Positions 4,013 through 62,432 of a stretch of DNA of 64,000 nucleotides are shown piece after piece. Both the position numbers and the translations under genes were made by a program. How positions within the stretch are numbered: the stretch's first letter is position 1; every line of letters starts with the position of its first letter. The stretch is taken from positions 27,212 to 91,211 of the forward strand of contig CAYMHT010000002.1 of the NCBI GenBank assembly GCA_964390305.1, in the 5' to 3' direction. The notes under the pieces were generated by a model. The model was not told where the DNA came from. It ran no database searches and was given only the letters and a program-made list of their open reading frames with translations. Origin of the DNA: an uncultured Anaerolineales bacterium (lineage in GTDB: Bacteria; Chloroflexota; Anaerolineae; B4-G1).

Positions 4013-4079
4013 GGAGTAGAATCAAAGTCCGCGTTTATGTGTGCGAACAGGTAAAGCTCATCGACCGAGGAGGTATTAA

Positions 4080-7251: not shown

Positions 7252-7275
7252 GAGGCCCTTTGGCCTTAGGTCGGG

Positions 7276-8151: not shown

Positions 8152-8159
8152 GATTCCCC

Positions 8160-11820: not shown

Positions 11821-12381
11821 TTGCCTGCGGCGATGTTCGTCGCCGGAGGAGTATGGGATCAGCGTAGGGTTTTTCCACTATATGAAATCCCGCGCACGAG
11901 CCCAAACACAGCTACAGAGAAGTTGCCAAGTTCTATGGGTGGCACGATCAGACTCAATGCCGCGGTCGCCAGCATGACGGCGGCCACGAACCCCAAGACT
12001 GCGTCGAGAGCGCATTCTCACACCTCCGTGATGCAGAGCACCCGAATGCTCCCTAGCCCGGTCGCCACGCTCGCCACCAAGGCTGCTTCAACTCCCATCA
12101 GGCTTCAATGATCGCCCAGAAGCTAGACGAGAAATTGTTGCATACTGCAAGTATGTCAGTGTATGCCGAATCTGTCAAATGCCTGTTGAGCTAGCCGGGC
12201 TCTGAGGGTACTGGGGTTTACCTTGTTTCGCATAGGCAAGGCATGGGGTATAAGGAGGGGGGGGTGAAAGGGAGGGGTGTTGGGAAATGACTACACGAAG
12301 CGCGCCGGCATCAAAGATGCACCACTCACCGTGGCGATATGACTTGCTTGTGCTCGGACTTTGTGTTAGGATGAGTTTCAG

Positions 12382-12801
12382 ATGGACAACACCGTGGAGG
12401 CGCAATTTGAGGAACTAGATCACACCGCCGATATCGCCATCCGTGTGTGGGGGGAGGATCTGCCCGAGCTCTTTGTCGCCGCAGCGTATGGAATGGCAGC
12501 GCAACTGGCCGACGTCGACGAGATCCGGCTTGAGGCCGACACGGAGGTGGAGGTCGCCGCCGACGATGTGGACAGGCTCTTGGTGGAGTGGCTCAGTGAG
12601 CTGCTTTACCTGGGCAAGCGGCTAGATGTCGTGTTCACAGAGTTCGACGTGCTCGAGTTCAGTGTTAACGGATTGCGGGCCCTTGCTCGCGGGGGTCGTG
12701 TGCAGGAGTATCAAACACACATCAAGGCAGTAACTTTCAGCGAGCTGGACATCAGGGAGACGGACAAAGGGTACGAGACCGTCATCGTGTTTGACGTATG
12801 A
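12382..12801 (+). CDS. archease (RtcB activator)
   Basis: Archease family (EELDHTADIAIRVWGEDLPELF...); stop overlaps rtcB start region. Confidence 0.85.
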   Translation: MDNTVEAQFEELDHTADIAIRVWGEDLPELFVAAAYGMAAQLADVDEIRLEADTEVEVAADDVDRLLVEWLSELLYLGKRLDVVFTEFDVLEFSVNGLRALARGGRVQEYQTHIKAVTFSELDIRETDKGYETVIVFDV

Positions 12802-12826
12802 GAACCACTCGTTGCTGGGGAGGGGC

Positions 12827-14284
12827 ATGAACATGGTTGATACGAAAGATTTCCGACGCTTAGACAAATTCATCTGGGAGTTGCCAAAGGAGTACAGGGA
12901 TGACATGAGGGTTCCCGTGAGGCTGTTCGCCGACTCCCAGCTTTTTGAGGCGGCCTTCGGGGACCGATCGATAGAACAGCTGATCAACACGTCCACACTG
13001 CCGGGCATCGTCAACTACGCCATGGCCCTGCCGGACGTCCACCAGGGCTACGGCTTTCCCATCGGCGGCGTGGCCGGGATCGACGCCGCGACGGGAGTCA
13101 TATCGCCCGGCGGTGTCGGGTACGACATAAACTGCGGCGTGCGGCTCCTGGCCTCACCCTTGGACGCGGAAGAGATCCTCCCTTACGGCGAGGATCTGAT
13201 GACCGCCCTCAATCAGTCCTGTCCCAGCGGCTTGGGGGGAGACGGACGTGTGCGGGTGAGCAAGGCTGAACTCGACAACTTGGTGACCGATGGCGCGTCC
13301 TGGGCGCTGCAACAAGGCCTGGCCCGCAAGGACGATGTCCAGCACACGGAGGAACAAGGGAAGCTGCCCGGAACTGACCCCAGCCAGGTCAGCCAACGTG
13401 CCAAGGAGCGCGGCCTCAGCCAGGTGGGGTCACTGGGCTCGGGAAACCACTTCCTCGAGCTCGACGTCGTCCGGACTCTGTACGACTCAGACGTGGCAGA
13501 GACCTTCGGTCTGCGCGAGGGTCAGCTCGTCGTCCAGATCCATTGTGGTTCCCGAGGCTTTGGTCATCAAGTATGTGACGACTACGTCAAGAGCCTCCAG
13601 TCCGCAGTCAAGAAATACGACATCTATCTGCCGAGTCGACAGCTCGTGTGCGCGCCCATCGACTCCCGAGAAGGTCGGGCGTATTACGGCGCCATGGCCT
13701 GTGCCGTCAACTACGCGTTTGTCAATCGGCAGGTCCTTGCAATGGGAGCCCGAGAGGCCTTTGAGCGCGTCCTTGCCGGAAAAGTGAGCGATTTCGACCT
13801 CCACCAGATCTACGACGTGGCCCACAATATCGCCAAGTTCGAGGAACACGTCGTAAACGGCAGCCCGAAGAAGCTGTGCATTCATCGCAAGGGTGCCACA
13901 CGCTGTTTCCCCCCAGGTCATGAGGGCGTTCCCGCTGCTTACCGCGACGTCGGCCAACCGGTTCTCGTGCCTGGCTCCATGGGAACCGCGTCCTACGTGC
14001 TCGTCGGTCAGCAGGAAGCCATGGACCTCACCTTTGGTTCCACCTGCCATGGCGCCGGCCGCACCATGAGCCGCACCCAGGCCCGCAAGGAGGTCTGGGG
14101 CCACGACCTCCGGGAGGAATTGGAGGCTGGCGGCATCACGGTCCGCGCAGGCAGCATGAAAGGCCTCGCGGAAGAGGCCCCCCTCGCTTACAAGGACGTC
14201 AGCCGCGTGGTCGACACCGTCCACGGGCTGGGCATCGCTCGCAAGGTCGCCCGGCTGGAGCCCATCGGGGTGATCAAGGGCTGA
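12827..14284 (+). CDS. rtcB: RNA-splicing ligase RtcB
   Basis: RtcB core (PDVHQGYGFPIGGVAG..., HNIAKFEEHVV..., CHGAGR); start set to ATG after GGGGAGGGG. Confidence 0.9.
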   Translation: MNMVDTKDFRRLDKFIWELPKEYRDDMRVPVRLFADSQLFEAAFGDRSIEQLINTSTLPGIVNYAMALPDVHQGYGFPIGGVAGIDAATGVISPGGVGYDINCGVRLLASPLDAEEILPYGEDLMTALNQSCPSGLGGDGRVRVSKAELDNLVTDGASWALQQGLARKDDVQHTEEQGKLPGTDPSQVSQRAKERGLSQVGSLGSGNHFLELDVVRTLYDSDVAETFGLREGQLVVQIHCGSRGFGHQVCDDYVKSLQSAVKKYDIYLPSRQLVCAPIDSREGRAYYGAMACAVNYAFVNRQVLAMGAREAFERVLAGKVSDFDLHQIYDVAHNIAKFEEHVVNGSPKKLCIHRKGATRCFPPGHEGVPAAYRDVGQPVLVPGSMGTASYVLVGQQEAMDLTFGSTCHGAGRTMSRTQARKEVWGHDLREELEAGGITVRAGSMKGLAEEAPLAYKDVSRVVDTVHGLGIARKVARLEPIGVIKG

Positions 14285-14404
14285 CCACCCACTTCCGCTG
14301 GGGTGTAAAACACCGAAACGGGGTCCTGCACTCACCTCGCCTGAATGCCTGACCCCGCTTTCAAACCCGTCGCCCGCTAATAAGGGGTTTGATCGCTCCT
14401 AGCG

Positions 14405-15118
14405 CTATTCCTGCCGTGCCTCCGTCACACCCAGAGCCACTACCAGTTCCCGCCTCAGGCCGTCGGGCAGCGGTTCCAGGTCACCCGGCCCTCGCAGCCA
14501 GTCCTTCACCTTCTTCCTGTAAAACACGGGAACCGGCGCCTTGTCAGCCTCGACCTGCACTTTCTCGTTGACGAAGACAATCACCCCGCGCACAGGCACC
14601 TCGTCGGCACGTTCCATCTGCTCGTCCAGGTACTGCTCCAGTCTGGTCGCCTGCTTCTGGGCCTCTTTGTGTGGCTTTCCCAGCGGCTCCTGCCCCACCA
14701 GCCGGCGGAAGAATTTCCCTCGCTGCTCATGCTTCCAGCGGCCGTCCTCCCCGTCTTCGTACCTCACCTCGCCACCCTGCGTCTTGACGACGAAGCACGT
14801 GCACCCACCCGGCTCCACCAGCACGTGATCAGCGGGTAGGCGATACTGGATCAGGGTGTGACGATAGTCCAGACCTTTGAGCATCTCTGCCAGTGCCTGG
14901 TGATGGGCAAGGGGTCCGGCATATCGATCGGCGAAGAAGCCACCGATGACCGACAGAACGAACCCCAGCCCCATGCTCACCATCAGGGCAACCACCCAGG
15001 TCGGCCTGACAAACGAGAGAACGAGTCCGATCATCAAGATCACTAGCCCACCCAGCGTGGCGTATCGACCCACTGAACTGAGCACGCTGATACGACGTTC
15101 GTCACGGACAATGCGCAT
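14405..15118 (-). CDS. membrane-anchored NERD-like (nuclease-related domain) protein
   Basis: Two N-terminal TM helices followed by cytosolic domain with NERD-like pattern (HVLVEPGGCTCFVVKTQGGEV...GVIVFVNEKVQVE); family call tentative. Confidence 0.4.
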   Translation of the reverse strand: MRIVRDERRISVLSSVGRYATLGGLVILMIGLVLSFVRPTWVVALMVSMGLGFVLSVIGGFFADRYAGPLAHHQALAEMLKGLDYRHTLIQYRLPADHVLVEPGGCTCFVVKTQGGEVRYEDGEDGRWKHEQRGKFFRRLVGQEPLGKPHKEAQKQATRLEQYLDEQMERADEVPVRGVIVFVNEKVQVEADKAPVPVFYRKKVKDWLRGPGDLEPLPDGLRRELVVALGVTEARQE

Positions 15119-15120
15119 CT

Positions 15121-16416
15121 CTACTCCTCAAAACCGCCCAGGACCAGACAGGCGTTCTGGCCTCCGAGCCCGAAGGAGTTGGAGAGCGCGACGCGCACGT
15201 CCGCCCTCCTGGGCCCGTCAGGCACGTAGTCCAGATCGCACTCAGGATCCGGGTTCTCCAGGTTCGCTGTGCGATGGATGACCCCGTCCTCAATCGTGCG
15301 AACACAAACCGCTGCCTCAATCGCACCTGCTCCACCCATTGGATGACCAATCATCGATTTCGTAGAGCTGATGGGAACGTCGTATGCATACTCCCTGAAC
15401 ACCCGCTTGATGGCGAGCGTCTCTATCGGATCACTGATCGGTGTCGAGCTACCATGGGCGTTGATGTAGTCAACCTCCGACGGCCCCACGCCTGCCGCCT
15501 CCAGCGCCCACTTCATAGCCCGGCTCGCGCCCCTGCCCTCAGGGTCCGGCTGCGCCACGTGAAAAGCGTCCGATGACGACGCGTATCCCAGCACCTCCGC
15601 ACGGATCCTCGCTCCCCGATCCCGCGCATGGTCAAGCTCCTCCAACACAAACACTGCTGCCCCTTCGCTTAGCACGAACCCGTCGCGGTCGGCGTCAAAC
15701 GGACGGCTGGCCCGCTCCGGCTCATCGTTCCGCACCGAGAGCGCTCGCATAGCACAGAAGCCCACCACCAAGGTGAAGTGAACCATCGCATCCACCCCGC
15801 CACAGATCATCACATCGGCGGATCCTCGGCGAATGTACTCCGCGGCCTCTCCAATGGCCTGCGTACCGGTTGCGCACGCAGCGACCACCGTGCTGATCGG
15901 CCCCATTGCCCCAGACCAGTGGCTCACGTGGTGCGACGGCATGTTCACCAACATGGAGATCGGTACGAAAGGGTTTACACGGCGCAATCCCTTCTCACGG
16001 AACGTATCAACGCCCTCGATCGCGCGCTCATAGCCGCCCACGCCACTTCCAATCAGCGTGCCCACGCGCTCCGCTCCTTCCAGCGGGAGCTCAAGCCCTG
16101 CGTCCGCCAGCGCCTGCTGTGCCGTGGCCAGCGCCACCGTCGAGCAGCGCGCCATTCTGCGAGCCTCTTTTTCGTCCACGTATTCCGTCGGATCGAAACC
16201 TTTGAGTTCCCCTGCAATCTGCACGGGCAAGTCAGATGGATCGAACTGAGCAATTCGATCAATACCCGATTCCCCGGCCAACAGATTCTGCCAGGTCTCT
16301 TCCATGCTCAGTCCCAGCGGCGTCATGGCACCCACGCCCGTCACAACAACGCGTCCTTCTCCCCTCATGGCCCGCCTTCCTTCACCCTCCGCCGTCCCGC
16401 CCTCCGGGTCCTTCAC
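15121..16416 (-). CDS. fabF: 3-oxoacyl-ACP synthase II
   Basis: KAS II with active-site Cys (ACATG) and His/His motifs (HGSSTPISD, GHPMGGAG). Confidence 0.9.
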   Translation of the reverse strand: MKDPEGGTAEGEGRRAMRGEGRVVVTGVGAMTPLGLSMEETWQNLLAGESGIDRIAQFDPSDLPVQIAGELKGFDPTEYVDEKEARRMARCSTVALATAQQALADAGLELPLEGAERVGTLIGSGVGGYERAIEGVDTFREKGLRRVNPFVPISMLVNMPSHHVSHWSGAMGPISTVVAACATGTQAIGEAAEYIRRGSADVMICGGVDAMVHFTLVVGFCAMRALSVRNDEPERASRPFDADRDGFVLSEGAAVFVLEELDHARDRGARIRAEVLGYASSSDAFHVAQPDPEGRGASRAMKWALEAAGVGPSEVDYINAHGSSTPISDPIETLAIKRVFREYAYDVPISSTKSMIGHPMGGAGAIEAAVCVRTIEDGVIHRTANLENPDPECDLDYVPDGPRRADVRVALSNSFGLGGQNACLVLGGFEE

Positions 16417-51774: not shown

Positions 51775-51828
51775 AAATCCCGACACCTTTCGCGCCGTGG
51801 GCCTCAGCCGTGTATGTTCCCCAATTCC

Positions 51829-51857
51829 TTGACAAATTATCTACATTCGGGTACACT
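51829..51857 (+). promoter_or_regulatory. sigma70 promoter (TTGACA-17-TACACT) overlapped by three ~10/11-bp-spaced ACA direct repeats resembling a CarH-type operator
   Basis: TTGACA 51829-51834; TACACT 51852-51857; ACA at 51832, 51843, 51853, the first two preceded by T at -3 (nnnnTnnACAn-like). Confidence 0.45.
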
Positions 51858-51893: not shown

Positions 51894-53225
51894 ATGCCGA
51901 GAGAGACCTACCGGGAGCCAATCTTCAACCTGAAAGCCGTGGTGGAGGCAACAGGCGTCACGGCCGACGCCCTGCGCGCGTGGGAGCGCCGCTACGATCT
52001 CCCCCGGCCAGACCGCACCGAGGCCGGCCACCGCATCTACTCCCAGCGCGATATCGATACCGTCAGGTGGCTGGTCGCCCGGCAGGAAGAGGGGCTCAGG
52101 ATCGGCAGGGCCGTTGACCTGTGGCGCAGCCTGGAAGAACGAGGCCAGGATCCTCTTCGCAAGATGCCCCTCTCCTCACAACCTGCAGGCATGCCCACCG
52201 GGCAAGGGACCGCCGACCTGCGCGAAGAATGGGTGTCCGCTTGCCTCGCTTTCGATGATCGGCGAGCGGACCAGGCCCTCACCCGGGCCTTCGCCCTCTT
52301 CTCTCCAGAGCTGGTCGTCCTCGATATTGTACGGGAGGGAATCGCGGAGATTGGTCGGAGGTGGTACCAGGGCGAGGTTACGGTACAGCAGGAACACTTT
52401 GCGTCCCAGGTCGCCATGCGCCGTCTCAAAGCCCTGATGACCGGCGCGCCACCGCCCACCCGCCGAGGCCGCGTCGTGATCGCATGCTCACCACACGAGG
52501 AGCACGCCGTCGGCCCCTTCATCTTGGCGCTGCTGCTCCGCAGAGCGAGCTGGGACGTGGTCTACCTGGGCACCGACGTTCCGCTCGAGCGGATGGAACA
52601 GACGGTCGACGCTACGGGGCCCGACCTCGTTGTCCTCGCTGCACAGCAGCTCCACACGGCAGCTACGCTCCTCAGAATGGCCCAGCTCTTGCAGCGCAAG
52701 GCCGTCTGCGTCGGGTTCGGGGGCGGCATCTTCAACCGCATCCCCGACCTGCGAAAGCGCGTGCCCGGCCATTTCCTGGGCCCGACCCTGACGAAGGCGA
52801 TGGAACGGACCGAGCGCCTCATTGTGACCAGCCCCCAGCCTCCCGCCGCAGAGAGCCGGTCGCCCGCCTACGACGAGGCCCTCGCGCATTACTTGGATCA
52901 TCAGCTCGCCGTGGAGGCCCAGGTCTGCCAGTCCCTCGCGGTCGAAGGGCTGCCTCCCCAGACCATGCATCAGGTCGCCGACGCATTCTCTGGTGCTCTC
53001 CTGGCCGCCCTCCAGTTCGGCGAGATCGACCTGCTCGGTGACTACGTAGACTGGGTGGAACGCCGGGACGTCCAACAGCAGACTTCGGTGCAAGGGCTCC
53101 GCCAGGTGCTTGAGGCCTATCACGAGGCTGTAAGAGACCAGTTGGACGAGCGTGCCGCGCCCATTGCCAGCTGGCTCCGCGAGCGGCTCGGTCAGACAGC
53201 CCACAACCTGGGAGAAAGGGAATGA
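51894..53225 (+). CDS. CarH/LitR-type MerR-family transcription regulator with AdoB12-binding light-sensor module (Wx9EH helical bundle plus Rossmann B12 domain) and ~150-aa C-terminal extension
   Basis: MerR HTH (FNLKAVVEATGVTADALRAWERRYDLPRPDRTEAGHRIYS); exact Wx9EH motif (RRWYQGEVTVQQEHF); B12-binding (D/E)xHxxG (SPHEEHAVGPFILALLL...VVYLG); AGAGGAG RBS. Confidence 0.75.
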   Translation: MPRETYREPIFNLKAVVEATGVTADALRAWERRYDLPRPDRTEAGHRIYSQRDIDTVRWLVARQEEGLRIGRAVDLWRSLEERGQDPLRKMPLSSQPAGMPTGQGTADLREEWVSACLAFDDRRADQALTRAFALFSPELVVLDIVREGIAEIGRRWYQGEVTVQQEHFASQVAMRRLKALMTGAPPPTRRGRVVIACSPHEEHAVGPFILALLLRRASWDVVYLGTDVPLERMEQTVDATGPDLVVLAAQQLHTAATLLRMAQLLQRKAVCVGFGGGIFNRIPDLRKRVPGHFLGPTLTKAMERTERLIVTSPQPPAAESRSPAYDEALAHYLDHQLAVEAQVCQSLAVEGLPPQTMHQVADAFSGALLAALQFGEIDLLGDYVDWVERRDVQQQTSVQGLRQVLEAYHEAVRDQLDERAAPIASWLRERLGQTAHNLGERE

Positions 53226-53692
53226 GCCGTCTGCGACCGGAGAACCTTCATGTCACCCACTCCCCGCGCGTCAGCGCTGACGGTCCCATAACACCGCGCT
53301 TCTACACCCTCACCCACTCCGACCTCACCGGCGATCTCTTCCTCACCATCGACTCCGCCTACGACACCGAGCAGATCTCCGGCCTGTACACGCGCCTCAT
53401 GCGCGACGAGGTACTAGCCGAATGGAAGGACGAAGAGCCAGGCCCAGTTCTTCACGTCCACTGTCACGTCAGTGGCGGACTGGCCCTGGGCCCGGCGGGC
53501 ACGCGATTCGCAATCTTCAAGACGGAGTTGCCCCTGGTCTTGCAGGCGCTCCGCTATGGCGACAGAGGCCTGTTCGAGGCGCACCCGGCGCTCGACCAAG
53601 CAACCATAGAGGTACACTTCCACGCGACTCAGCCTCGCTACGACCGGGTCGAGCGCTGGGGCGTCCCTGGTGACCATCGACACGAGAGTTGA
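53222..53692 (+). CDS. Stay-Green (SGR) family protein, bacterial homolog of chlorophyll Mg-dechelatase
   Basis: Strong similarity across SGR core: RFYTLTHSDLTGDLFLTI, YTRLMRDEVLAEWKD, LHVHCHVSGG, RFAIFKTELPLVLQALRYGD, IEVHFHATQPRYDRVERWG; ATGA overlap with regulator stop. Confidence 0.75.
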   Translation: MSRLRPENLHVTHSPRVSADGPITPRFYTLTHSDLTGDLFLTIDSAYDTEQISGLYTRLMRDEVLAEWKDEEPGPVLHVHCHVSGGLALGPAGTRFAIFKTELPLVLQALRYGDRGLFEAHPALDQATIEVHFHATQPRYDRVERWGVPGDHRHES

Positions 53693-53723
53693 CCGTCATC
53701 TCTCCACCGTGTGCTGAGTGCCT

Positions 53724-54497
53724 ATGAAGTCGAGAGCAGAGAGAACCGTGCGCTATATCAAGCGATGGTGGTGGGTGCTGCTTCTTATCCCGCTCCTGGC
53801 GGCCGTCGGCTTCGTCGTCTGGGCCGAATCCACATCCAGCCCAATGCCCGGAGGGGAGGCCGCCTTGGAGGCACCCATGAGTGCCGACGACGTATTGGTG
53901 ACGAGGCACGATTGGCTCACATTCCGCCCCACAGCCCAGGAGCCCTCCACCGGCCTCGTCTTCTATCCCGGCGGGCGCGTCGATCCGCGCGCCTACGGCC
54001 CGCCTGCCCGCGCCATCGCTGGCCGGGGCTATCTCGTGGTCGTCGTGCCCATGCCGCTCAACCTTGCGGTCTTCGCGCCAGATCGCGCGGCCGCTGTGAT
54101 CGACTCGTTTCCACAAGTAACGCGGTGGGTCGTCGGAGGACACTCGTTGGGCGGAGCGATGGCGGCCCGTTTTGCTCACAGGCATCCGGGGACGGTGGAG
54201 GGGCTCCTGCTCTGGGCCTCCTACCCGGCACAGAGTGACGACCTCTCCGAGCAGGATCTTTCTGTCACCGCCGTATACGCCACCAACGACGGGCTGGCTA
54301 CCCCCGAGGAGATCGCTGCCTCGCGGCACCTCCTCCCTTCGGGGACCCAATGGATCGAGATTGAGGGCGGCAATCACGCACAATTCGGCTGGTACGGCTC
54401 GCAGGCCGGGGACGTGCCAGCCACGATCAGCCGCGAAGCACAGCAGCACCAGGTGACGGCTGCAACCCTGGCCCTGCTCCAAGAGGTGGAGAGATGA
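53724..54497 (+). CDS. membrane-anchored alpha/beta hydrolase (GHSLGG nucleophile elbow)
   Basis: N-terminal TM helix; alpha/beta-hydrolase motifs GHSLGG, catalytic Asp/His candidates; alternative GTG start at 53718. Confidence 0.7.
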   Translation: MKSRAERTVRYIKRWWWVLLLIPLLAAVGFVVWAESTSSPMPGGEAALEAPMSADDVLVTRHDWLTFRPTAQEPSTGLVFYPGGRVDPRAYGPPARAIAGRGYLVVVVPMPLNLAVFAPDRAAAVIDSFPQVTRWVVGGHSLGGAMAARFAHRHPGTVEGLLLWASYPAQSDDLSEQDLSVTAVYATNDGLATPEEIAASRHLLPSGTQWIEIEGGNHAQFGWYGSQAGDVPATISREAQQHQVTAATLALLQEVER

Positions 54498-54651
54498 GAC
54501 GCGGAGCCGAGGCCGGCCACCAGCGCGATACGTCCGGGGTTCACCAGCCGGGCGGCATCCCTGCTCGTCACGAAGAGGCCTGGGAATCCAGAGGGGCCGG
54601 GCCACGTCAACCGACGACGTCCCGGGGCAGAGAGCGCGGCAGGAGCGAGAG

Positions 54652-55623
<972 letters not shown>

Positions 55624-55780
55624 TGAACGGGCGAGCGCTCTCCGCAGTTGCCTCACAAACGTTGACGCGACGGGAAAGGCCCGAGCACAAACAGTGGGTC
55701 GCAGTGCACCGCTCGGTCTAGGGAAAGGAACCGAGGCCGCCGAATCAGACGAGCAAGATGCTAAGCGAAGGACACCATAT

Positions 55781-56128
55781 ATGGACAACAAACTCGCACA
55801 CACGAAGTCTTCGGGCAGTCGTGGCGATGCCCGCGTCCTGACTGAGGAGAAGATGAAGGAGATGATGCCTCAGGTTCCCGACTGGGAGATTGTTGAGGAG
55901 GACGGCGCGAAGAAACTGAGACGCGATTTCGAGTTCGGCAATTTCGTCGAAGCCCTCCAGTTTGCCAATGAGATCGGCGAGATTGCAGAGGAACAGGGAC
56001 ATCACCCCATCATCATCCTGACCTGGGGCCGCGCCACGATCACCTGGTACACCCACGACATCAAGGGGCTGCACGAGAACGACTTCCTTATGGCCGCCAA
56101 GAGCGATAAGCTGTATTCACCTGAGTAG
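55781..56128 (+). CDS. pterin-4a-carbinolamine dehydratase (PCD/DCoH family)
   Basis: PCD signature (DFEFGNFVEALQFANEIGEIAEEQGHHPIIILTWGRATITWYTHDIKGL). Confidence 0.8.
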   Translation: MDNKLAHTKSSGSRGDARVLTEEKMKEMMPQVPDWEIVEEDGAKKLRRDFEFGNFVEALQFANEIGEIAEEQGHHPIIILTWGRATITWYTHDIKGLHENDFLMAAKSDKLYSPE

Positions 56129-56161
56129 TCAACTCGCTCACTTACCCCGTCGAGGATACCC

Positions 56162-57004
56162 ATGTCAGTAAAGATTGTCACCGATAGCACCTGCGACCTG
56201 CCCGAGGAGATCACGGCCGATCTCGGAGTCACCGTCGTGCCGCTGTACATCAACGTGGGCCAGAAGAGCTACCTGGATGGCGTTGAGATGTCACGGCAGG
56301 AGTTCTATGAACGCCTGCCTACGTTTGAGGACCATCCTCAGACGGCCTCGCCCGGCCCAGAGATGTTTCGCGAGACCTACGAGAGGCTAGCGAACGAGGG
56401 CGCTCAAGAGATTCTCTCCATCCACATCTCCATCAGCCTCAGCGGGACGCTCAACACGGCGCAGCTGGCTGCCGAGGCAACAGACGCCGTGCCGGTCACG
56501 GTCTTCGACTCGGGGCAGTTGAGCGTCGGAACCGGGTTCCTGGTCAAGACAGCCGCCAAGGCGGCCGCGGCGGGGCGCTCCATCGCCGAGATCGTTGACG
56601 AGCTCAAGGAGAGGACCCGGCGAACACATCTGTTTGCAGCCCTGGACACCCTCGAGTTTCTTCAGCGGAGCGGGCGGATGAACTGGGCAGTCTCGAAGAT
56701 TGGGGGCCTGCTGAGGATCAAACCGCTACTGACGATGCACGACGGCGAGCCCAACGTTCAGCAGGTGCGCACGACAAAACGCGCCGTGCAGCGACTGCTC
56801 GACATGTTGGAGGATCTGGCGCCGCTTGAGGAGTTGGCGTTGGTGCATACCCAGGCACCAGAGACGATCAGGGAGCTTCGTGAGCGTGCCAGACATCTCT
56901 TCCCCGAGGGCAAGGAGCCGATTGAGGCCGAGGTGACGCCCGTGATTGGAGCTCACATCGGACCAGGGGCCGCAGGCTTCGCGTGCGTGGCCGCCAGCAG
57001 ATGA
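56162..57004 (+). CDS. DegV family fatty-acid-binding protein
   Basis: MSVKIVTDSTCDLPEE... DegV fold pattern throughout. Confidence 0.85.
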   Translation: MSVKIVTDSTCDLPEEITADLGVTVVPLYINVGQKSYLDGVEMSRQEFYERLPTFEDHPQTASPGPEMFRETYERLANEGAQEILSIHISISLSGTLNTAQLAAEATDAVPVTVFDSGQLSVGTGFLVKTAAKAAAAGRSIAEIVDELKERTRRTHLFAALDTLEFLQRSGRMNWAVSKIGGLLRIKPLLTMHDGEPNVQQVRTTKRAVQRLLDMLEDLAPLEELALVHTQAPETIRELRERARHLFPEGKEPIEAEVTPVIGAHIGPGAAGFACVAASR

Positions 57005-57085
57005 GCAGATTGTCGCCACAATGCGCTGCGTCCTGTTGCCAGAGCGACGAATCGCAGAGCAGCTCGGTTTGCGGAGGTGTTCGAC

Positions 57086-57535
57086 GTGATAGCCATCCGA
57101 GAATACTGTGACGAAGACTGGCGGGCGATATGTCGCATTCACGACCGCGCCCGGCCGGATGAGTTGAGAGGTTCTTGTGATCCACGTGCCTTCGTGCCGA
57201 TCGAGCAGGACAAAGAGGTAGAGGATCTGCGCCTGGCACATGAGCTCGTGGCCCGCAACGGCGAGCGCGTGGTCGGGTTTGTGGGGATCGACGGCGACTG
57301 TCTGGCGTGGCTCCACGTAGATCCCGAGTATTACGAACAGGGGATAGGACGAGCCCTTCTGCGGAAGGGTCTCGCGGAGATCGGTCCGCGGGCGTGGACG
57401 ATTGTGCTGGATGGAAAGGAGCCAGCCCGCCACCTGTACGAAAGCGAGGGGTTCAGAGAGGTACTTCGCTTTGACAGCGACAATGCCGGATACCCGTGCC
57501 GGTGCATCCGAATGGAGCGATATGAAGTGGGTTGA
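57086..57535 (+). CDS. GNAT family N-acetyltransferase
   Basis: GNAT motifs (VVGFVGIDGDCLAWLHVDPEYYEQGIGRALL); GTG start 8 nt after GGAGG (alternative GTG at 57077). Confidence 0.7.
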   Translation: MIAIREYCDEDWRAICRIHDRARPDELRGSCDPRAFVPIEQDKEVEDLRLAHELVARNGERVVGFVGIDGDCLAWLHVDPEYYEQGIGRALLRKGLAEIGPRAWTIVLDGKEPARHLYESEGFREVLRFDSDNAGYPCRCIRMERYEVG

Positions 57536-57884
57536 AGTGGTAGCGAAAGACGATCTTCCAAAGGGCACGCGCCAGGTGCTTGACGTGACCGGGCGAGATA
57601 TCCTCCTCATCAATCACGAGGGGCAGATTCACGCCGTGGGGAACCGCTGCCCCCACATGGGCGCGAAGCTGGAGCACGGTGAGGTGACCGCGGACAGTAG
57701 CATCGTGTGCCCGCGCCATCACAGCGTGTTCGATCTGACCACAGGTGCAGTGGAGGATTGGGTACCCTGGCCACCCCTGGTCGGGCGCGCTCTAGGCGCC
57801 GTCTCCCAGGAGAGGGCCCTCCCCGTGTACCCCACGAAGGTGGAGGAAGGTAGCATTTGGGTGGCCATCGAGGATTCTGGATGA
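57522..57884 (+). CDS. Rieske [2Fe-2S] domain protein (small ferredoxin-like)
   Basis: CPH...CPRH Rieske ligand boxes (NRCPHMGAKL; CPRHHSVFD); start overlaps GNAT end. Confidence 0.75.
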   Translation: MKWVEVVAKDDLPKGTRQVLDVTGRDILLINHEGQIHAVGNRCPHMGAKLEHGEVTADSSIVCPRHHSVFDLTTGAVEDWVPWPPLVGRALGAVSQERALPVYPTKVEEGSIWVAIEDSG

Positions 57885-58942
57885 GCGGCAGGGACACGTG
57901 GACGGTGATCGACGTGGACGACCTGCCGTATGTCACAGCGGATCTGGCGGGGATCGGCGGGGAGATCAAGATCGAGCCGGCCCAGTTCGTGGTGGAGGAG
58001 ATACCGCTGTACGAACCATCCGGCGAAGGGCAGCACGTCTACGTCCGCCTGACCAGGGAGGGATGGACCACCCGCGCTCTGGAGCGAGAGCTGCGGAAGC
58101 TGTTCGATCTACGGGAGGTGGACGTCGGCTGCGCCGGTCGGAAGGACAAGCACGCCCGCACCACGCAGACGTTCTCCCTCAACTTGCCCGGGACCGATGA
58201 GGACGCCGTCGCCCACCGGATTCACGAGAACCTGCCGGTCGAGGTCGAGTGGGTGCGGCGCCACCGCAACAAGATCCGAGCCGGACACCTCCTCGGCAAC
58301 CGCTTCCGCATCGTGGTCGTGGATGCGCACGAGGACGCTCTCGCTCGATCCCAGACCATCGCCGAGGCGCTGAAAGATCACGGGCTGCCGAACTTCTACG
58401 GTCCGCAGCGATTTGGCACGTACGGTGACAACGCAGAGCGCGGTCGGGACATTCTGCTGACGGGGAAGGGACCGCGCAAGCGCTGGCTGCGACGTCTCCT
58501 GTTGCGTGCCTATCAATCGGCGCTGTTTAACACGTGGCTCGTCCGGCGGCTGGAGCGTGATTGGTTCGAACGCCTGTTGACTGGCGACATTGCCAAGAAA
58601 CTCGATACGGGCGGCCTGTTCGAAATAGAGGACGCGGCAGCGGAACAGCCTCGCTTTGACCGCCGCGAGATCACGTACACGGGCCCGATCTACGGGTCCA
58701 GAATGTGGTGGGCGGGCGGTCCGCCGGGTGAGCTGGAGCGCGATGTGCTCGAACAGGCGCAGGTGACAGAGGAGATGCTGGAGCGAGAGCGCCTGAGTGG
58801 GAGTCGCCGCCGCGCGCGACTGCTGCTGGAGGACCTTGAGGTGGAGAGTCACCCTGACGGCATACTGTTCACGTTTAGCCTCCCCAAGGGGGCATACGCG
58901 ACGACCTTGCTGCGGGATTTCATGAAGCAGGTCGTCACCTGA
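57881..58942 (+). CDS. truD: tRNA pseudouridine synthase TruD/Pus7 family
   Basis: TruD core with catalytic Asp context (GRKDKHA) and overall family pattern; ATGA overlap with Rieske gene. Confidence 0.7.
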   Translation: MSGRDTWTVIDVDDLPYVTADLAGIGGEIKIEPAQFVVEEIPLYEPSGEGQHVYVRLTREGWTTRALERELRKLFDLREVDVGCAGRKDKHARTTQTFSLNLPGTDEDAVAHRIHENLPVEVEWVRRHRNKIRAGHLLGNRFRIVVVDAHEDALARSQTIAEALKDHGLPNFYGPQRFGTYGDNAERGRDILLTGKGPRKRWLRRLLLRAYQSALFNTWLVRRLERDWFERLLTGDIAKKLDTGGLFEIEDAAAEQPRFDRREITYTGPIYGSRMWWAGGPPGELERDVLEQAQVTEEMLERERLSGSRRRARLLLEDLEVESHPDGILFTFSLPKGAYATTLLRDFMKQVVT

Positions 58943-59056
58943 GGCGGAGCCCACGACTGGAGAAGGGCCCCGCTGGCACGCGCCGGTCGTGCCCTGCACG
59001 GGCGGGTTGGCCCTGTTGTGGGTACATGCGTGCCTAGCCAAGAATGGGAGAGATCT

Positions 59057-59392
59057 ATGAGACTCGCAAAGATATTGGCCTTGCTCGGGGCGGCTGCAAT
59101 GACAGCGGTTCTCGTCTACGCGTTCAGCACCGGCGACTTGGGCAAGGAGGGAAGCGCGCTTCTGTCCATGCCCTGGGGCATCGTATCGCTGGTCGACCTG
59201 TACGTGGGATTCTTTCTCTTCTCCGGGTGGATCGCCTACCGGGAGAAGTCCTTCATCCGCTCGGTCGTGTGGATCGTGTTGATGATGGTCCTGGGTTTTT
59301 TCACCGCCAGCGTGTACACCCTGGTCGCGCTGCAGACCAGCGGGGGCGACTGGCGCCGCTTCTGGATGGGAAGGCGCTGGGAGGATGAGTAG
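59057..59392 (+). CDS. DUF1475-like small membrane protein
   Basis: Three TM helices; GGGAGAG RBS before ATG 59057. Confidence 0.5.
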   Translation: MRLAKILALLGAAAMTAVLVYAFSTGDLGKEGSALLSMPWGIVSLVDLYVGFFLFSGWIAYREKSFIRSVVWIVLMMVLGFFTASVYTLVALQTSGGDWRRFWMGRRWEDE

Positions 59393-60371
59393 CCTGTTCT
59401 GGGCCAGGTGCCTGGACGAAGAACCGACCATTCGCCTGGGAGTGAGCACGTGCCTGATGGGGGAGAACGTCCGCTACGACGGCGGACACAAACGGGACCC
59501 CTTTCTGATCGAAACCCTCGGCCAGTTCGTCGAGTGGGTGCCCGTCTGTCCCGAGGTGGAGATTGGCCTACCCATTCCTCGGGAGGCGATGCATCTGCAG
59601 GGCGACCCCGACGCCCCTCGCCTGGTGACCATCCGGACCGGCAAGGACTACACGGAGCGCATGCGGACATGGGCCAGAGAGCGACTCGACGAGCTCGCTG
59701 AGGCCAATCTGCACGGCTTCGTCTTCAAGAGCCGATCCCCCAGCTCCGGCCTCTATCGGGTCAAGGTCTACGACCAGCATGGCATGCCCAGCCGCGTCGG
59801 CACCGGGATCTTCCCCAGCGAGGTCATGCGCCGCTTCCCCCTGCTCCCTCTGGAGGAGGATGGGCGTCTCCACGATATGGGCCTCAGGGAGAACTTCATC
59901 GAGCGACTCTTCGTCTACTACCGCTGGACCTGTATGCTCCAAGAGCGCCCCGCGCCCGGTGGCCTTGTCGCGTTCCATACGGCACACAAACTGACCATGA
60001 TGGCGCATAGCCCGCAACATTACCAGAAGATGGGCCGCTTGGTCGCCGATGCGGGCACCCTACCCTGGCCCGAGCTTCGGAGCCGCTACGGGCAACTCCT
60101 CATGGAGGGACTGGAGGTAATGGCTACCACGGGGCGACATGTCAACGTGCTGCAACACCTGATGGGCTTCCTCAAGGAGTTCCTCTCTAAGGACGACAAG
60201 GCCGAGCTCCTCGGTCTCATCAGCGATTACCAGGATGGTCTGGTTCCCCTCATCGTCCCCCTGACCTTGCTGAAGCATCACCTGAGCCGCTATCCGGTGG
60301 CCCACTGGGTCCATCAGCAGGTCTACCTCAAGCCCTACCCCAAGGAGCTCATGCTCCGCAACCACGTATAG
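59385..60371 (+). CDS. DUF523 (TudS-like Fe-S thiouracil desulfidase fold) fused to DUF1722 (YbgA-like) protein
   Basis: N-terminal DUF523 pattern (IRLGVSTCLMGENVRYDGGHKRDPF...WVPVCPEVEIGLPIPRE); C-terminal YbgA/DUF1722 helical domain. Confidence 0.7.
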   Translation: MSSLFWARCLDEEPTIRLGVSTCLMGENVRYDGGHKRDPFLIETLGQFVEWVPVCPEVEIGLPIPREAMHLQGDPDAPRLVTIRTGKDYTERMRTWARERLDELAEANLHGFVFKSRSPSSGLYRVKVYDQHGMPSRVGTGIFPSEVMRRFPLLPLEEDGRLHDMGLRENFIERLFVYYRWTCMLQERPAPGGLVAFHTAHKLTMMAHSPQHYQKMGRLVADAGTLPWPELRSRYGQLLMEGLEVMATTGRHVNVLQHLMGFLKEFLSKDDKAELLGLISDYQDGLVPLIVPLTLLKHHLSRYPVAHWVHQQVYLKPYPKELMLRNHV

Positions 60372-60384
60372 GGCACGGTCCGCG

Positions 60385-60714
60385 ATGAGGATCTGGGACG
60401 TTCCGCCGGAGAAGCTCTGCCGTAATCATCTCCTTGGCGAGCATAGCGAGCTCCACGCCGTCTGGTCCATCCTGACCCAGGGCAAGAAGGGCTACGCAAA
60501 TCATCCGGAGGTCCTGCGTTGGAAGGGAAAGCTCAAAGCGCTCTATCGGAAACACGAGCAGATTGTCGCCGAGATGCAACGGCGCGGCTACCGCCACCGG
60601 AGCCCCCTCGACCCCGCCCTAGCCACCGGCGCCGCTCACCAGGACGAGCTCGTCGACTCCCTCGAGAAGCAGGCTCAAATCCTCAGGCAGAAAGGCTGCG
60701 GCTGCCACGTCTGA
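60385..60714 (+). CDS. pyrimidine-dimer DNA glycosylase (T4 endonuclease V / Pyr_excise family)
   Basis: MRIWDVPPEKLCRNHLLGEHSELHAVW matches the N-terminal catalytic region of T4 endoV (QHLMAEYRELPRV). Confidence 0.7.
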   Translation: MRIWDVPPEKLCRNHLLGEHSELHAVWSILTQGKKGYANHPEVLRWKGKLKALYRKHEQIVAEMQRRGYRHRSPLDPALATGAAHQDELVDSLEKQAQILRQKGCGCHV

Positions 60715-60917
60715 CCGACCCACCCTAGCTGGGCCGTGATCCTGATCTTGTCCTGAGAGCAGTACGTATAACGCCACGGGCGCGCCACATCATCCCAGGT
60801 GTGGGTCGCCCTTCCATAGCCGACGATTCCTCACTATGGCCGCCTCCACTTGACCTATCCCGCGCACCGTGTATAATATCTCCACTGTCTCGAACAACAA
60901 CTGCATACAAGGCCTGT

Positions 60918-61055
60918 TCTCCGACCCAGCCCCCTAACGAGAGCCAAGACGCGATCTATGGGAGCTGGGCGATAGGGCTTGGCTGGAAACGGCCAACGTC
61001 TCGTGGACGACGACGTCGTCCCGAGACCGCGCCTCCCGCGTTTGGAAAGGAGAAT
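60918..61055 (+). ncRNA. Moco-riboswitch-like element, copy 1 (contains an extra internal hairpin); its 3' end carries AAGGAG-ATG of a 28-codon uORF
   Basis: Conserved blocks UCUCCGACCCAG...CUGGGCG.UAGGG...GGCUGGAAACGGCC...GCCUCCCGCGUUUGGAAAGGAG; internal hairpin GUCUCGUGGACGACGACGUCGUCCCGAGAC. Confidence 0.55.
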
Positions 61056-61140
61056 GGACGACAGAAAGTCGACACACCGGCGTCCACTTCTTTCCAGTGG
61101 GCGCCGGTTTCTGTGTTCAGGTCTCACAAGAGAAGTCTGA

Positions 61141-61232
61141 TCTCCGACCCAGGCCCCTAAAGGCTGGTCCCAAGGGTCCTGGGCGTTAGGGTGAGGCTGG
61201 AAACGGCCCCGCCTCCCGCGTCTGGAAAGGGG
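61141..61232 (+). ncRNA. Moco/Tuco-riboswitch-like element, copy 2 (lacks the extra hairpin)
   Basis: Same conserved blocks as copy 1 (UCUCCGACCCAGG..., GGCUGGAAACGGCC, CGCCUCCCGCGUCUGGAAAGG) minus the 36-nt hairpin; begins right after the uORF stop. Confidence 0.55.
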
Positions 61233-61400
61233 ATCGATACACGTGGGTCTTCTTCTCACGTGACGTGCATCGCGGCCCTTCCGGCGCTTCTGGGTCGAAG
61301 GGAGGTGATGAACGTCGAGCCGAGGATGATGAACTGTCACGAAACTGCAAGGACACCGAATCACCGAGACCGTGACCGCATATCAAAGGAGAGAGACCCA

Positions 61401-62432
61401 ATGACTGCAAAGCACCTACTCTGGACGCTGACGGCCTTCATTTTCGTACTCGTCTCAGCAGCTGGCTGTACAGAGACCACGCCCGCACCCGCGCCGACAG
61501 CAGTGCCGGAATCATACACCGAATCAGAGCGGACCGAACTGGAGGGCAAACTGGTCATCTTCCACGCTGGCAGCCTTACGGTGCCGGTCGACGAACTGAC
61601 GGCAGCCTTCCAGGAGGTCCACCCTGACGCGAGGTTTGAGACCGAGGCCTCTGGCAGCAACGCAGCTGCCCGCAAGATTAGCGAGTTGGGCCGGGAAGCG
61701 GACCTGATGATGTCCGCCGACTACACCGTCATCTACGAGTTGCTGATTCCGGGCTTCGCGGACTGGAACGTGCGCTTCGCCCGGAACACGATGGTGATCG
61801 CGTACACTGATCAATCGCACTATGCCGGGGAGATCAACAGCGACAACTGGTACGAGATCCTCCTCCGGGACGGCGTCATCTACGGGCACTCCGAACCCGA
61901 CGCAGATCCTTGCGGCTATCGCACGCTGATGGTGTGGCAGCTGGCGGAGGCATACTACGACGAACCAGGACTATACGAAAGACTGGAGGCGAGTTGTCCG
62001 CCGGAGAACGTGCGCCCCAAGTCAGTGGAGCTGATCGCGCTGCTGGAGTCGGGCGATATGGATTACGCCTATGAATACCGCTCGGTCGCGGTGCAGCACG
62101 GGCTCAACTTCATCGAGCTCCCGGATGAGATCAACCTGAGCATGGTCGAGCACGCTGATTTCTACAGCCAGGCCAGTGTAGAGATCGCCGGCGCAGAACC
62201 GGGAGAGCAGATGACGATGGTAGGAAAGCCCATCGTCTACGGCGTGACCATCCCGAGCAACGCTCCCAGCCCCGATCTCGCCGAGGAATTTGTCAAGTTC
62301 CTCCTGGGCCCCGAAGGCCAGGCGATCATGGAAGACCAGGGCCAGCCACCCATCTTGCCACCGGTGTCCGGCGAGGTGGACAATCTGCCCGATGCGCTCA
62401 AGGGGATGGTTGAGTCCCCACCTCAGAGCTAG
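61401..62432 (+). CDS. molybdate/tungstate ABC transporter substrate-binding lipoprotein (ModA/WtpA family)
   Basis: Lipobox LVSAAGC; ModA/WtpA pattern (KLVIFHAGSL...EASGSNAAARKI...ADLMMSADYT); AAAGGAGAG RBS before ATG 61401. Confidence 0.8.
   Translation: MTAKHLLWTLTAFIFVLVSAAGCTETTPAPAPTAVPESYTESERTELEGKLVIFHAGSLTVPVDELTAAFQEVHPDARFETEASGSNAAARKISELGREADLMMSADYTVIYELLIPGFADWNVRFARNTMVIAYTDQSHYAGEINSDNWYEILLRDGVIYGHSEPDADPCGYRTLMVWQLAEAYYDEPGLYERLEASCPPENVRPKSVELIALLESGDMDYAYEYRSVAVQHGLNFIELPDEINLSMVEHADFYSQASVEIAGAEPGEQMTMVGKPIVYGVTIPSNAPSPDLAEEFVKFLLGPEGQAIMEDQGQPPILPPVSGEVDNLPDALKGMVESPPQS

What the first reader, a model, noticed from the sequence alone, without database searches (positions are those of the whole stretch)
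59385..60714. UV-damage module: DUF523-DUF1722 (TudS/YbgA-like) fusion immediately followed by a T4 endoV-like pyrimidine-dimer glycosylase
Sequence: 59385-60371 fuses a DUF523 Fe-S domain (VSTCLMGENVRYDGG...VCPEVEIG) to a YbgA-type DUF1722 domain. 13 nt downstream, 60385-60714 has the N-terminal catalytic signature of the pyrimidine-dimer glycosylase family (MRIWDVPPEKLCRNHLLGEHSEL). Established knowledge: DUF1722 (YbgA) genes are classically linked to photolyase (phr). DUF523 proteins (TudS) desulfurate thiouracil. PDG/endoV-like enzymes excise cyclobutane pyrimidine dimers. Inference: here a light-independent CPD glycosylase takes the place of photolyase next to YbgA. This hints at a shared role in UV-photoproduct or modified-base repair for the DUF523-DUF1722 fusion.
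Basis: partly seen in the sequence, partly recalled or inferred. Interest (0 to 1): 0.5.

Follow-up and report, generated by a model that had tools for sequence, protein, structure and literature searches.

The report
Light-regulated tRNA-desulfidase plus UV-glycosylase gene pair
The two genes are real: a variant of the known tRNA 4-thiouridine eraser RudS followed by a small T4-endoV-like DNA glycosylase, at the end of a gene string headed by a B12 light-sensor regulator, so this is a new variation on a known bacterial light/UV-stress module and not a new system.

Summary
Both ORFs exist exactly as described. ORF 59385-60371 is a TudS/DUF523 + DUF1722 fusion. ORF 60385-60714 matches Pyr_excise (E 2e-27), and its model has the T4 endoV fold, the catalytic Glu and a fixed N-terminus.

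RudS is a [4Fe-4S] desulfidase that removes the UVA-sensitive s4U8 from tRNA, and it is often found in LitR/photolyase operons.

Three things are new here:
- **Repair-gene slot.** The glycosylase sits 8-13 nt after RudS in all 10 informative close relatives. In other RudS lineages the same slot holds UvdE, class I or II photolyase, or an endonuclease IV-like gene.
- **Light-sensor regulator.** A CarH/LitR B12 photoreceptor regulator with a CarH-type operator heads the 12-gene co-directional string (51.8-60.7 kb).
- **Cys-to-Ser ligand change.** This RudS clade has Ser in place of the third Fe-S cysteine. The change arose at least twice and has no compensating Cys.

From the glycosylase side the link is not general: 0 of 80 genomes carry RudS nearby. 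No biochemical activity has been tested. Verdict: a new variant of a known kind, of moderate interest.

The parts
51825..51857 (+). Sigma-70-like promoter (TTGACA-17-TACACT, 51829-51857) overlapped by two perfect and one imperfect tandem 11-bp nnnnTnnACAn repeats, read as a CarH-type operator
Evidence: This is the only 3xACA (10-11 nt spacing) site on either strand of the 64-kb window. The stricter two-repeat TnnACA pattern hits 3 sites in the window, this one included. The repeat consensus is from PMC9304148. A similar TTGACA-overlapping repeat lies upstream of DUF1295-LitR-DUF1475-RudS in L085/L086.
51894..53225 (+). CarH/LitR-type AdoB12 photoreceptor transcription regulator (443 aa)
   Evidence: Pfam finds MerR_1, B12-binding_2 and B12-binding. 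The motifs RAWERRY (aa 28), Wx9EH (aa 157) and EEHAVG (aa 202) are present. It is 49% identical to the MerR+B12 gene directly upstream of DUF1475-RudS in L085.
53222..57884 (+). Seven co-directional genes between the regulator and TruD: Staygreen 53222-53692, Abhydrolase_5 53718-54497, Abhydrolase_1 54652-55623, Pterin_4a 55694-56128, DegV 56162-57004, GNAT 57077-57535, Rieske 57402 (more likely 57522)-57884
   Evidence: Pfam assignments are and intergenic gaps of -134 to 154 nt. Staygreen, DegV and Rieske recur beside RudS-like genes in L081, L082 and L085.
57857..58942 (+). TruD, tRNA pseudouridine-13 synthase
   Evidence: Pfam TruD E 3.5e-74, with NCBIfam TruD models. It is conserved 1-3 kb upstream of DUF1475-RudS in the clade with at least 79% identity.
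59018..59392 (+). DUF1475 small membrane protein whose stop overlaps the RudS-like start by 8 nt
   Evidence: Pfam PF07343 E 1e-11. It lies immediately upstream of the RudS-like gene in the loci with 69-84% RudS identity that have upstream sequence. In L001 it is adjacent to the PDG-like gene without RudS.
59385..60371 (+). RudS-like TudS-DUF1722 fusion with Ser121 (codon TCC) in place of the third [4Fe-4S] cysteine ligand
   Evidence: Pfam is. The alignment to TudS 6Z92 is, and to the characterised RudS_TT, which pairs C23 with Cys16, C55 with Cys47 and S121 with Cys111. All 120 nearest homologues have SPSSG. Among 136 sequences (the window protein plus 135 cluster representatives), 131 have Cys and 5 have Ser.
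60385..60714 (+). PDG-like protein, a 109-aa Pyr_excise / T4 endoV-fold family member; last gene of the string
   Evidence: Pfam is. The AF2 model has pLDDT 93.6. The top Foldseek hit is 2END, prob 0.99, TMq 0.65. hhalign pairs E22 with Glu23.

Best explanation
The finding is the 3' end of a light/UV-stress gene string in a Chloroflexota (Anaerolineae-like) genome.

A CarH/LitR-type AdoB12 photoreceptor repressor (51894-53225) sits behind a promoter that carries a CarH-type tandem-repeat operator. Eleven co-directional genes follow, ending in DUF1475, RudS-like and PDG-like.

Proposed mechanism:
- In the dark, the B12-bound regulator blocks the promoter; light releases it. This is inferred.
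- The RudS-like enzyme uses the free iron of a [4Fe-4S] cluster to pull sulfur off 4-thiouridine at tRNA position 8. That removes the chromophore that crosslinks to C13 under UVA and stalls translation. This function was shown for RudS homologues and is inferred here. In this protein the cluster would be held by Cys23, Cys55 and, unusually, Ser121 or only two cysteines.
- The PDG-like enzyme uses its N-terminal alpha-amino group (Met1, in the register of T4 endoV Thr2) and Glu22 to cut the glycosyl bond at cyclobutane pyrimidine dimers and nick the DNA. This starts light-independent base-excision repair and is inferred from homology.

The two genes are linked by co-expression in a UV response, not by acting on the same substrate. 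The glycosylase fills a slot that other RudS lineages fill with photolyase, UvdE or an endo IV-like gene.
For: - **Domains and fold:**
- **PDG-like catalytic register:** E22 aligns with Glu23, E19 with Glu20 and H15 with His16. Ungapped extension of that alignment puts M1 on Thr2 and R2 on Arg3 (using a T4 sequence verified as identical to 2END). E22 and R2 are invariant in 200 of 200 family members, and 114 of 120 proteins start exactly at (M/V)R(I/V)W.
- **RudS function and its LitR/photolyase association:** PMC11417400.
- **RudS-like catalytic residues:** C23 is conserved in 135 of 136 sequences (the other has a gap) and C55 in 135 of 136 (one Tyr). E57, R66 and S118 are invariant in all 136, and position 120 is Ser or Thr.
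- **Adjacency:** PDG follows RudS by 8-13 nt in all 10 loci (72-84% RudS identity) that keep sequence 3' of RudS.
- **Slot replacement:** the gene 3' of RudS is UvdE, class II photolyase, class I photolyase or AP_endonuc_2 in other lineages.
- **Regulator:** motifs and operator are. In L085-87 the same regulator type is directly fused to DUF1475-RudS and has the same operator type.
- **Independent light and UV links for the PDG-like family:** in L075 a MerR+B12 regulator overlaps the PDG-like start. In 12 Methanosarcinales loci a class II photolyase lies 2.5-5 kb away.
Against: - No activity was measured for any part.
- The third cluster ligand of RudS is missing, and Cys mutants of characterised RudS mostly lose activity.
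- From the PDG side the link is weak: 0 of 80 genomes with a PDG-like gene have TudS or DUF1722 within 6 kb.
- The 10 loci with the pair belong to one lineage, so they represent one evolutionary event.
- Whether the 8.8-kb string is one transcript is unknown. There are gaps of up to 154 nt and no operator upstream of DUF1475.
- The PDG-like protein lacks T4 endoV's C-terminal segment, and Arg26 is not conserved.
- ThiI, the s4U synthase, was not found among the window ORFs that were examined.
Confidence: 0.6

Rival explanations
1. The adjacency has no functional meaning. The PDG-like gene is a free-standing housekeeping repair gene that landed once behind RudS in one Anaerolineae lineage and has stayed there by descent.
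For: 0 of 80 PDG-like genome loci have RudS nearby, and no neighbour is conserved across phyla. All loci with the pair share wider synteny (Rieske-TruD...DUF1475-RudS-PDG), which indicates one origin.
Against: Independent RudS lineages carry other UV-lesion repair genes in exactly the same 3' position. That is far more often than expected for gene classes that are a tiny fraction of a genome. The PDG-like gene is also coupled to a MerR+B12 regulator in L075.
Confidence: 0.2
2. The Ser121 RudS-like protein is not a tRNA s4U desulfidase. Loss of the third cysteine abolishes or changes the cluster, and the protein acts as a tRNA-binding or sensing factor or catalyses different chemistry.
For: S121 replaces the Cys that is conserved in every characterised TudS and RudS. 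No compensating Cys is conserved. Most Cys-to-Ala RudS mutants are inactive.
Against: All other catalytic residues are retained: E57, R66 and S118 are invariant and position 120 is Ser or Thr. Ser is held through all four TCN codons in one clade and is AGC in most of another, so it was selected at least twice. Two larger Ser clades and three singletons appear in the NJ tree. The Ser clades keep the same photolyase, UvdE and LitR context as canonical RudS. RudS_TT C47A remains active.
Confidence: 0.15
3. The 109-aa PDG-like protein does not act on DNA cyclobutane dimers. It acts on another substrate, for example other UV or oxidative lesions, AP sites, or the s4U8-C13 photo-crosslink in tRNA.
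For: This subfamily is uncharacterised, and only sub-threshold NCBIfam hits were found. It lacks the endoV C-terminal recognition segment. It has an invariant Cys12/Cys105/Cys107 triad plus several invariant His residues, none of which has an aligned counterpart in T4 endoV (C12 aligns with Ala13; the C-terminus is not alignable). In this window it sits directly after a tRNA s4U enzyme and near TruD.
Against: Its slot equivalents are all DNA UV-repair enzymes. The endoV fold and catalytic Glu are retained. It usually occurs without RudS. In Methanosarcinales it lies near a CPD photolyase.
Confidence: 0.1

Closest known systems
RudS (TudS-DUF1722 tRNA 4-thiouridine desulfidase; P. putida PP_0741, T. 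thermophilus TTHB112; PMC11417400)
   Same: The architecture is the same, and the alignment to RudS_TT is full length (37% identity, E 1e-51). The first two Cys ligands, the catalytic Glu, Ser, Ser and Arg are conserved. The light-responsive genomic context with a LitR/CarH regulator and a UV DNA-repair gene is also shared.
   Different: The third cluster ligand is Ser, not Cys. The partner repair gene is a dimer glycosylase, not a photolyase. There is a tightly coupled upstream DUF1475 membrane protein. Activity is untested.
T4 endonuclease V / Chlorella virus PDG (Pyr_excise, PDB 2END)
   Same: It matches the Pfam family and has the same fold. It shares the N-terminal register, an Arg after the first residue, and the Glu20/Glu23 pair.
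   Different: It is 109 aa against 138 aa. The C-terminal third is not alignable. The N-terminal residue is Met, not Thr. Arg26 is not conserved. It has an invariant Cys triad and multiple invariant His residues. It is cellular (bacteria and archaea) and extremely conserved, at 61-84% identity across phyla.
Pseudomonas LitR-PhrB-RudS operon and E. coli ybgA-phr operon
   Same: A DUF1722-containing gene is co-located with a CPD repair gene, under a B12/MerR light regulator in Pseudomonas.
   Different: Here repair is light-independent (a glycosylase). The regulator is a class I CarH type with Wx9EH. It sits 6 kb upstream, at the head of a much longer string that includes Staygreen, DegV, Rieske and TruD.
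CarH (T. thermophilus, M. xanthus, B. megaterium)
   Same: It has MerR with RxWERRY, Wx9EH and ExHxxG, and tandem 11-bp TnnACA repeats over the -35 element.
   Different: It has a C-terminal extension of about 140 aa. Its target genes are not carotenoid genes. Only two perfect repeats and one imperfect repeat are present.

Membership tests
Pyr_excise / T4 endoV pyrimidine-dimer glycosylase | Match to PF03013 above the gathering score | tested here: met
   95.9 bits against a cut-off of 23, E 1.9e-27, aa 1-75.
Pyr_excise / T4 endoV pyrimidine-dimer glycosylase | endoV all-alpha fold | tested here: met
   The AF2 model has pLDDT 93.6. The top four Foldseek PDB hits are all T4 endoV: 2END prob 0.99, TMq 0.65.
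Pyr_excise / T4 endoV pyrimidine-dimer glycosylase | Free N-terminal alpha-amino nucleophile one residue before the conserved Arg (Thr2-Arg3 in T4) | tested here: met
   M1-R2 is in ungapped register with T2-R3. No earlier start codon exists in the ORF. 114 of 120 homologues start at this residue and R2 is invariant in 200 of 200. The chemistry itself is untested.
Pyr_excise / T4 endoV pyrimidine-dimer glycosylase | Catalytic Glu23 | tested here: met
   E22 aligns with Glu23 and is invariant in 200 of 200.
Pyr_excise / T4 endoV pyrimidine-dimer glycosylase | DNA and dimer recognition residues Arg22, Arg26 and the C-terminal Arg117/Lys121/WYKYY segment (residue list from my own knowledge of T4 endoV) | tested here: not met
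   S21 (Arg in many homologues) and A25 sit at the Arg22 and Arg26 positions. hhalign covers only aa 8-72, so the C-terminal third is not alignable and instead ends in GCxC.
Pyr_excise / T4 endoV pyrimidine-dimer glycosylase | CPD-specific glycosylase/AP-lyase activity | not testable with these tools
   This needs an enzyme assay.
RudS (TudS-DUF1722 tRNA s4U desulfidase) | TudS domain followed by DUF1722 in one polypeptide | tested here: met
   PF04463 at aa 19-159 and PF08349 at aa 202-319.
RudS (TudS-DUF1722 tRNA s4U desulfidase) | Three conserved Cys ligands of the [4Fe-4S] cluster | tested here: not met
   C23 and C55 are present. The third position is Ser121, aligned to Cys104 of TudS and Cys111 of RudS_TT. 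No alternative conserved Cys exists.
RudS (TudS-DUF1722 tRNA s4U desulfidase) | Catalytic Glu, two Ser and Arg (RudS_KT Glu51, Ser111, Ser113, Arg60) | tested here: met
   E57, S118, S120 and R66 are present. E57, S118 and R66 are invariant in all 136 sequences and position 120 is Ser (124) or Thr (12). Residue roles are from PMC11417400.
RudS (TudS-DUF1722 tRNA s4U desulfidase) | Light-responsive or UV-repair genomic context | tested here: met
   A CarH/LitR regulator heads the string. The 3' neighbour is a UV-repair gene here and in relatives.
RudS (TudS-DUF1722 tRNA s4U desulfidase) | tRNA s4U8 desulfidase activity, and ThiI in the same genome | not testable with these tools
   No assay is possible, and only 64 kb of the genome is available. 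No ThiI was found among the ORFs scanned.
CarH/LitR class I AdoB12 photoreceptor regulator | MerR HTH with RxWERRY, Wx9EH in the helical bundle, and D/ExHxxG B12 motif | tested here: met
   RAWERRY is at aa 28, W-x9-EH at aa 157 and EEHAVG at aa 202. Motif definitions are from PMC9304148. The long spaced B12 regular expression did not match.
CarH/LitR class I AdoB12 photoreceptor regulator | Operator of tandem 11-bp nnnnTnnACAn repeats overlapping the promoter | tested here: met
   Positions 51825-51846 hold two perfect repeats (TTGACA lies within the first), and 51847-57 holds an imperfect one. This is the only 3xACA (10-11 nt spacing) site in the window. Binding is untested.

The most novel reading that the evidence does not exclude
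The 109-aa MRIWD...GCxC proteins form a distinct, metal-binding branch of the endoV fold whose real substrate is not, or not only, DNA cyclobutane dimers. In this operon it would work with a Ser-ligated, possibly more oxygen-tolerant RudS as a two-enzyme system that both erases s4U8 and clears the s4U8-C13 photo-crosslink or related UVA photoproducts from nucleic acids. TruD (position 13) would belong to the same tRNA-core programme.
Probability: 0.1. Interest if true: 0.75.

Novelty: new variant of a known kind. Interest (0 to 1): 0.4.

Why it matters
RudS was described only in 2024, and its physiological role (protecting translation during UVA exposure) rests mainly on overexpression in E. 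coli and on its association with photolyase. This finding adds four points.

- **Support for the UV link.** The gene slot after RudS is repeatedly filled by four mechanistically unrelated UV-lesion repair enzymes, under a CarH-type light switch. That strengthens the link and suggests a general design of "erase the tRNA photosensor and repair the DNA".
- **A natural experiment on the Fe-S cluster.** The recurrent, selected Cys-to-Ser replacement at a cluster ligand bears on how the substrate-binding [4Fe-4S] cluster of TudS-type desulfidases is held.
- **A cheap biochemical target.** The 109-aa glycosylase subfamily is very widespread in bacteria and archaea, unusually conserved and uncharacterised.
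- **Limits.** None of this overturns current knowledge.

Tried and rejected
- **PDB sequence search.** phmmer of the PDG-like protein against PDB sequences found nothing meaningful. The relationship to endoV shows only by profile and by fold.
- **RudS next to PDG-like genes.** I searched 80 genomes at E values up to 10 and found none.
- **Neighbour clustering.** Unbiased clustering of neighbours around the PDG-like gene found no partner conserved across phyla, only Methanosarcina-specific synteny.
- **Compensating third Cys.** I looked for one in the Ser clade, including C183 and C9. Neither is conserved.
- **Repair genes in the window.** tblastn for class I and II photolyase, UvdE and endo IV found nothing.
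- **ThiI and Uvr.** None appeared among the larger ORFs scanned.
- **Second operator.** There is no second CarH operator directly upstream of DUF1475 or elsewhere in the string.
- **B12 motif.** The long spaced B12 motif regular expression did not match.
- **Source organism.** It could not be named.
- **Literature.** Searches found no report of RudS with PDG or UvdE, none on bacterial DUF1475, and none on this short PDG subfamily.
- **My own error.** My first greedy gene call placed two spurious minus-strand ORFs over the regulator gene. This was corrected by tblastn.
Full report
**Observation.** The window holds ORFs at 59385-60371 (328 aa) and 60385-60714 (109 aa) on the + strand, separated by 13 nt. 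Pfam assigns the first to 2-thiour_desulf/DUF523 (aa 19-159, E 4e-40) plus DUF1722 (aa 202-319, E 1e-39). It assigns the second to Pyr_excise (aa 1-75, E 1.9e-27).

**The fusion protein.** The only solved relative by sequence is TudS, 6Z92. The literature shows that TudS-DUF1722 fusions were characterised in 2024 as RudS. RudS enzymes are [4Fe-4S] desulfidases that remove the UVA-reactive 4-thiouridine at tRNA position 8. They reduce UVA growth delay and are often encoded with photolyase under LitR regulators (PMC11417400). The window protein aligns over its full length with the characterised T. thermophilus RudS_TT (37% identity, E 1e-51).

**The Cys-to-Ser change.**
- The alignments with TudS and RudS_TT place Ser121 (codon TCC) where the third cluster cysteine should be. 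C23, C55, E57, R66, S118 and S120 are retained.
- All 120 nearest homologues read SPSSG.
- In an alignment of 136 sequences (the window protein plus 135 representatives of 50%-identity clusters), 131 have Cys and 5 have Ser at this position.
- No compensating Cys is conserved.
- A neighbour-joining tree gives two larger Ser-only clades and three singletons.
- The window clade uses all four TCN codons, whereas most of the second clade uses AGC. Ser is therefore selected, not a sequencing error, and arose from TGC at least twice.
- The RudS paper reports that most Cys mutants are inactive, but that one two-Cys variant (RudS_TT C47A) keeps its activity.
- I therefore call this a RudS-family variant and treat its activity as likely but unproven.

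**The small protein.**
- It belongs to a very large family with more than 3,280 hits. Identity is 61-84% across Chloroflexota, Acidobacteriota, Omnitrophota, Methanosarcinales, Thermoplasmata and Nitrosopumilaceae.
- An AlphaFold model is confident (pLDDT 93.6). Its only significant PDB neighbours are T4 endonuclease V structures (2END, prob 0.99, TMq 0.65).
- Profile alignment to T4 endoV, using a sequence verified as identical to 2END, pairs E22 with the catalytic Glu23, E19 with Glu20 and H15 with His16.
- Without gaps, that alignment puts Met1-Arg2 in the register of Thr2-Arg3.
- The N-terminus is fixed. No earlier start codon exists, and 114 of 120 homologues begin at this residue.
- Three features differ from T4 endoV: the C-terminal third is not alignable, Arg26 is not conserved, and Cys12, Cys105, Cys107 and several His residues are invariant in 200 of 200 members. 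This hints at a metal site that I could not check.
- No curated NCBIfam model covers this subfamily, and I found no paper on it.

**Is the adjacency meaningful? The glycosylase side.** From this side it is not general.
- None of 80 genome loci carries TudS or DUF1722 within 6 kb, and no neighbour is conserved across phyla.
- There are still independent UV and light links. A class II photolyase lies 2.5-5 kb away in 12 Methanosarcinales loci.
- In a Thermomicrobiales MAG (L075), a MerR+B12-binding regulator overlaps the start of the PDG-like gene.

**Is the adjacency meaningful? The RudS side.** From this side the picture is clear.
- All 10 loci (72-84% RudS identity) that retain downstream sequence have the PDG-like gene 8-13 nt after RudS.
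- More distant RudS lineages have other repair genes in the same position:

| Gene 3' of RudS | Loci |
|---|---|
| UvdE | L084 |
| Class II photolyase | L099, L117 |
| Class I photolyase | L106, L108 |
| AP_endonuc_2 gene with an endo IV-like N-terminus | L101 |

- Others have a Rieske oxygenase, DUF1846 or nothing in that slot.
- The slot after RudS is thus repeatedly taken by mechanistically unrelated UV-lesion repair enzymes.

**Wider context.**
- tblastn with the regulator from L085 revealed a 443-aa CarH/LitR-type protein at 51894-53225. My first crude gene call had missed it.
- It has MerR, B12-binding_2 and B12-binding domains. It also has the RxWERRY, Wx9EH and ExHxxG motifs that define AdoB12-dependent CarH.
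- Its promoter (TTGACA-17-TACACT, 51829-51857) is overlapped by two perfect and one imperfect 11-bp nnnnTnnACAn repeats. That arrangement occurs nowhere else in the window.
- The same TTGACA-overlapping repeat precedes DUF1295-LitR-DUF1475-RudS in L085/86.
- Eleven co-directional genes follow with gaps of -134 to 154 nt: Staygreen, two hydrolases, Pterin_4a, DegV, GNAT, Rieske, TruD, DUF1475, RudS-like and PDG-like.
- The DUF1475 stop overlaps the RudS start by 8 nt.
- After the PDG-like gene a new unit begins. It has a strong promoter-like site and two tandem Moco riboswitches ahead of an ABC transporter.
- Whether the whole string is one light-controlled transcript is inferred, not shown.
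- No photolyase, UvdE, endo IV, ThiI or Uvr gene was found in the window. This says little about the whole genome.

**Conclusion.**
- The finding is a genuine, well-conserved gene pair that belongs to a known kind of system, the light-responsive RudS plus UV-repair module.
- It differs from published examples in three ways: the repair partner is a dimer glycosylase, the cluster ligand is Ser instead of Cys, and a CarH-headed string includes TruD and DUF1475.
- The mechanism I propose is light-released CarH repression, s4U8 erasure from tRNA, and light-independent incision at pyrimidine dimers. It rests on homology and gene context only.
- I rate it a new variant of a known kind, with moderate interest.

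Noticed in passing
window 60850-61401: A promoter-like site (TTGACC-16-TATAAT, 60850-60877) is followed by two tandem Moco/tungsten riboswitch aptamers (60907-61068, 39 bits; 61130-61248, 64.9 bits). A terminator-like hairpin with a 13-bp stem (61076-61108) lies between them. Both precede a molybdate/tungstate-type ABC transporter. The listed ORF start at 61191 overlaps the second aptamer, so the real start is probably the ATG at about 61401, just before a lipoprotein-like signal.
   Followed up: partly
window 57857-58942; L081, L088-L096: TruD (tRNA pseudouridine-13 synthase) is conserved 1-3 kb upstream of DUF1475-RudS-PDG throughout the close clade. Position 13 is the crosslink partner of s4U8, so two enzymes that act on the same tRNA core are co-located. 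TruD is not seen next to more distant RudS genes.
   Followed up: partly
window 60385-60714 (aa C12, C105, C107, H15, H20, H24, H40, H57): A Cys triad and five His residues are invariant in 200 of 200 family members. None has an aligned counterpart in T4 endoV except H15, which pairs with His16. They may form a structural or redox metal site.
   Followed up: partly
window 59018-59392; L001 292-946: The DUF1475 small membrane protein is translationally coupled to RudS here (8-nt overlap). It lies directly upstream of RudS in all close relatives. In one Anaerolineales MAG it is followed directly by the PDG-like gene with no RudS. There is no literature on bacterial DUF1475.
   Followed up: partly
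L085 7425-8012: A second, stand-alone DUF1722 ORF (195 aa, 68% identical to the window's DUF1722 half) lies 1.4 kb downstream of the full RudS-like gene in the same locus.
   Followed up: no
window 53222-53692: A Staygreen-family gene (the family of the plant Mg-dechelatase) starts 4 nt inside the end of the CarH-like regulator gene. It recurs beside DUF1475 and RudS in L082. Its role in a presumably non-phototrophic Chloroflexota light regulon is unexplained.
   Followed up: no
window 12382-14284: An archease-like ORF (identified from its N-terminal sequence only, not scanned) and an RtcB RNA ligase (Pfam E 5e-169) form a pair, another RNA-repair element in the same window. It is far from the finding.
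   Followed up: no
L120 (T. thermophilus HB8 pTT27) 3832-15431: The characterised RudS_TT lies about 9 kb from the carH-ldrP and crtB-phr light-inducible genes on the megaplasmid. It is separated from them by carotenoid genes.
   Followed up: no
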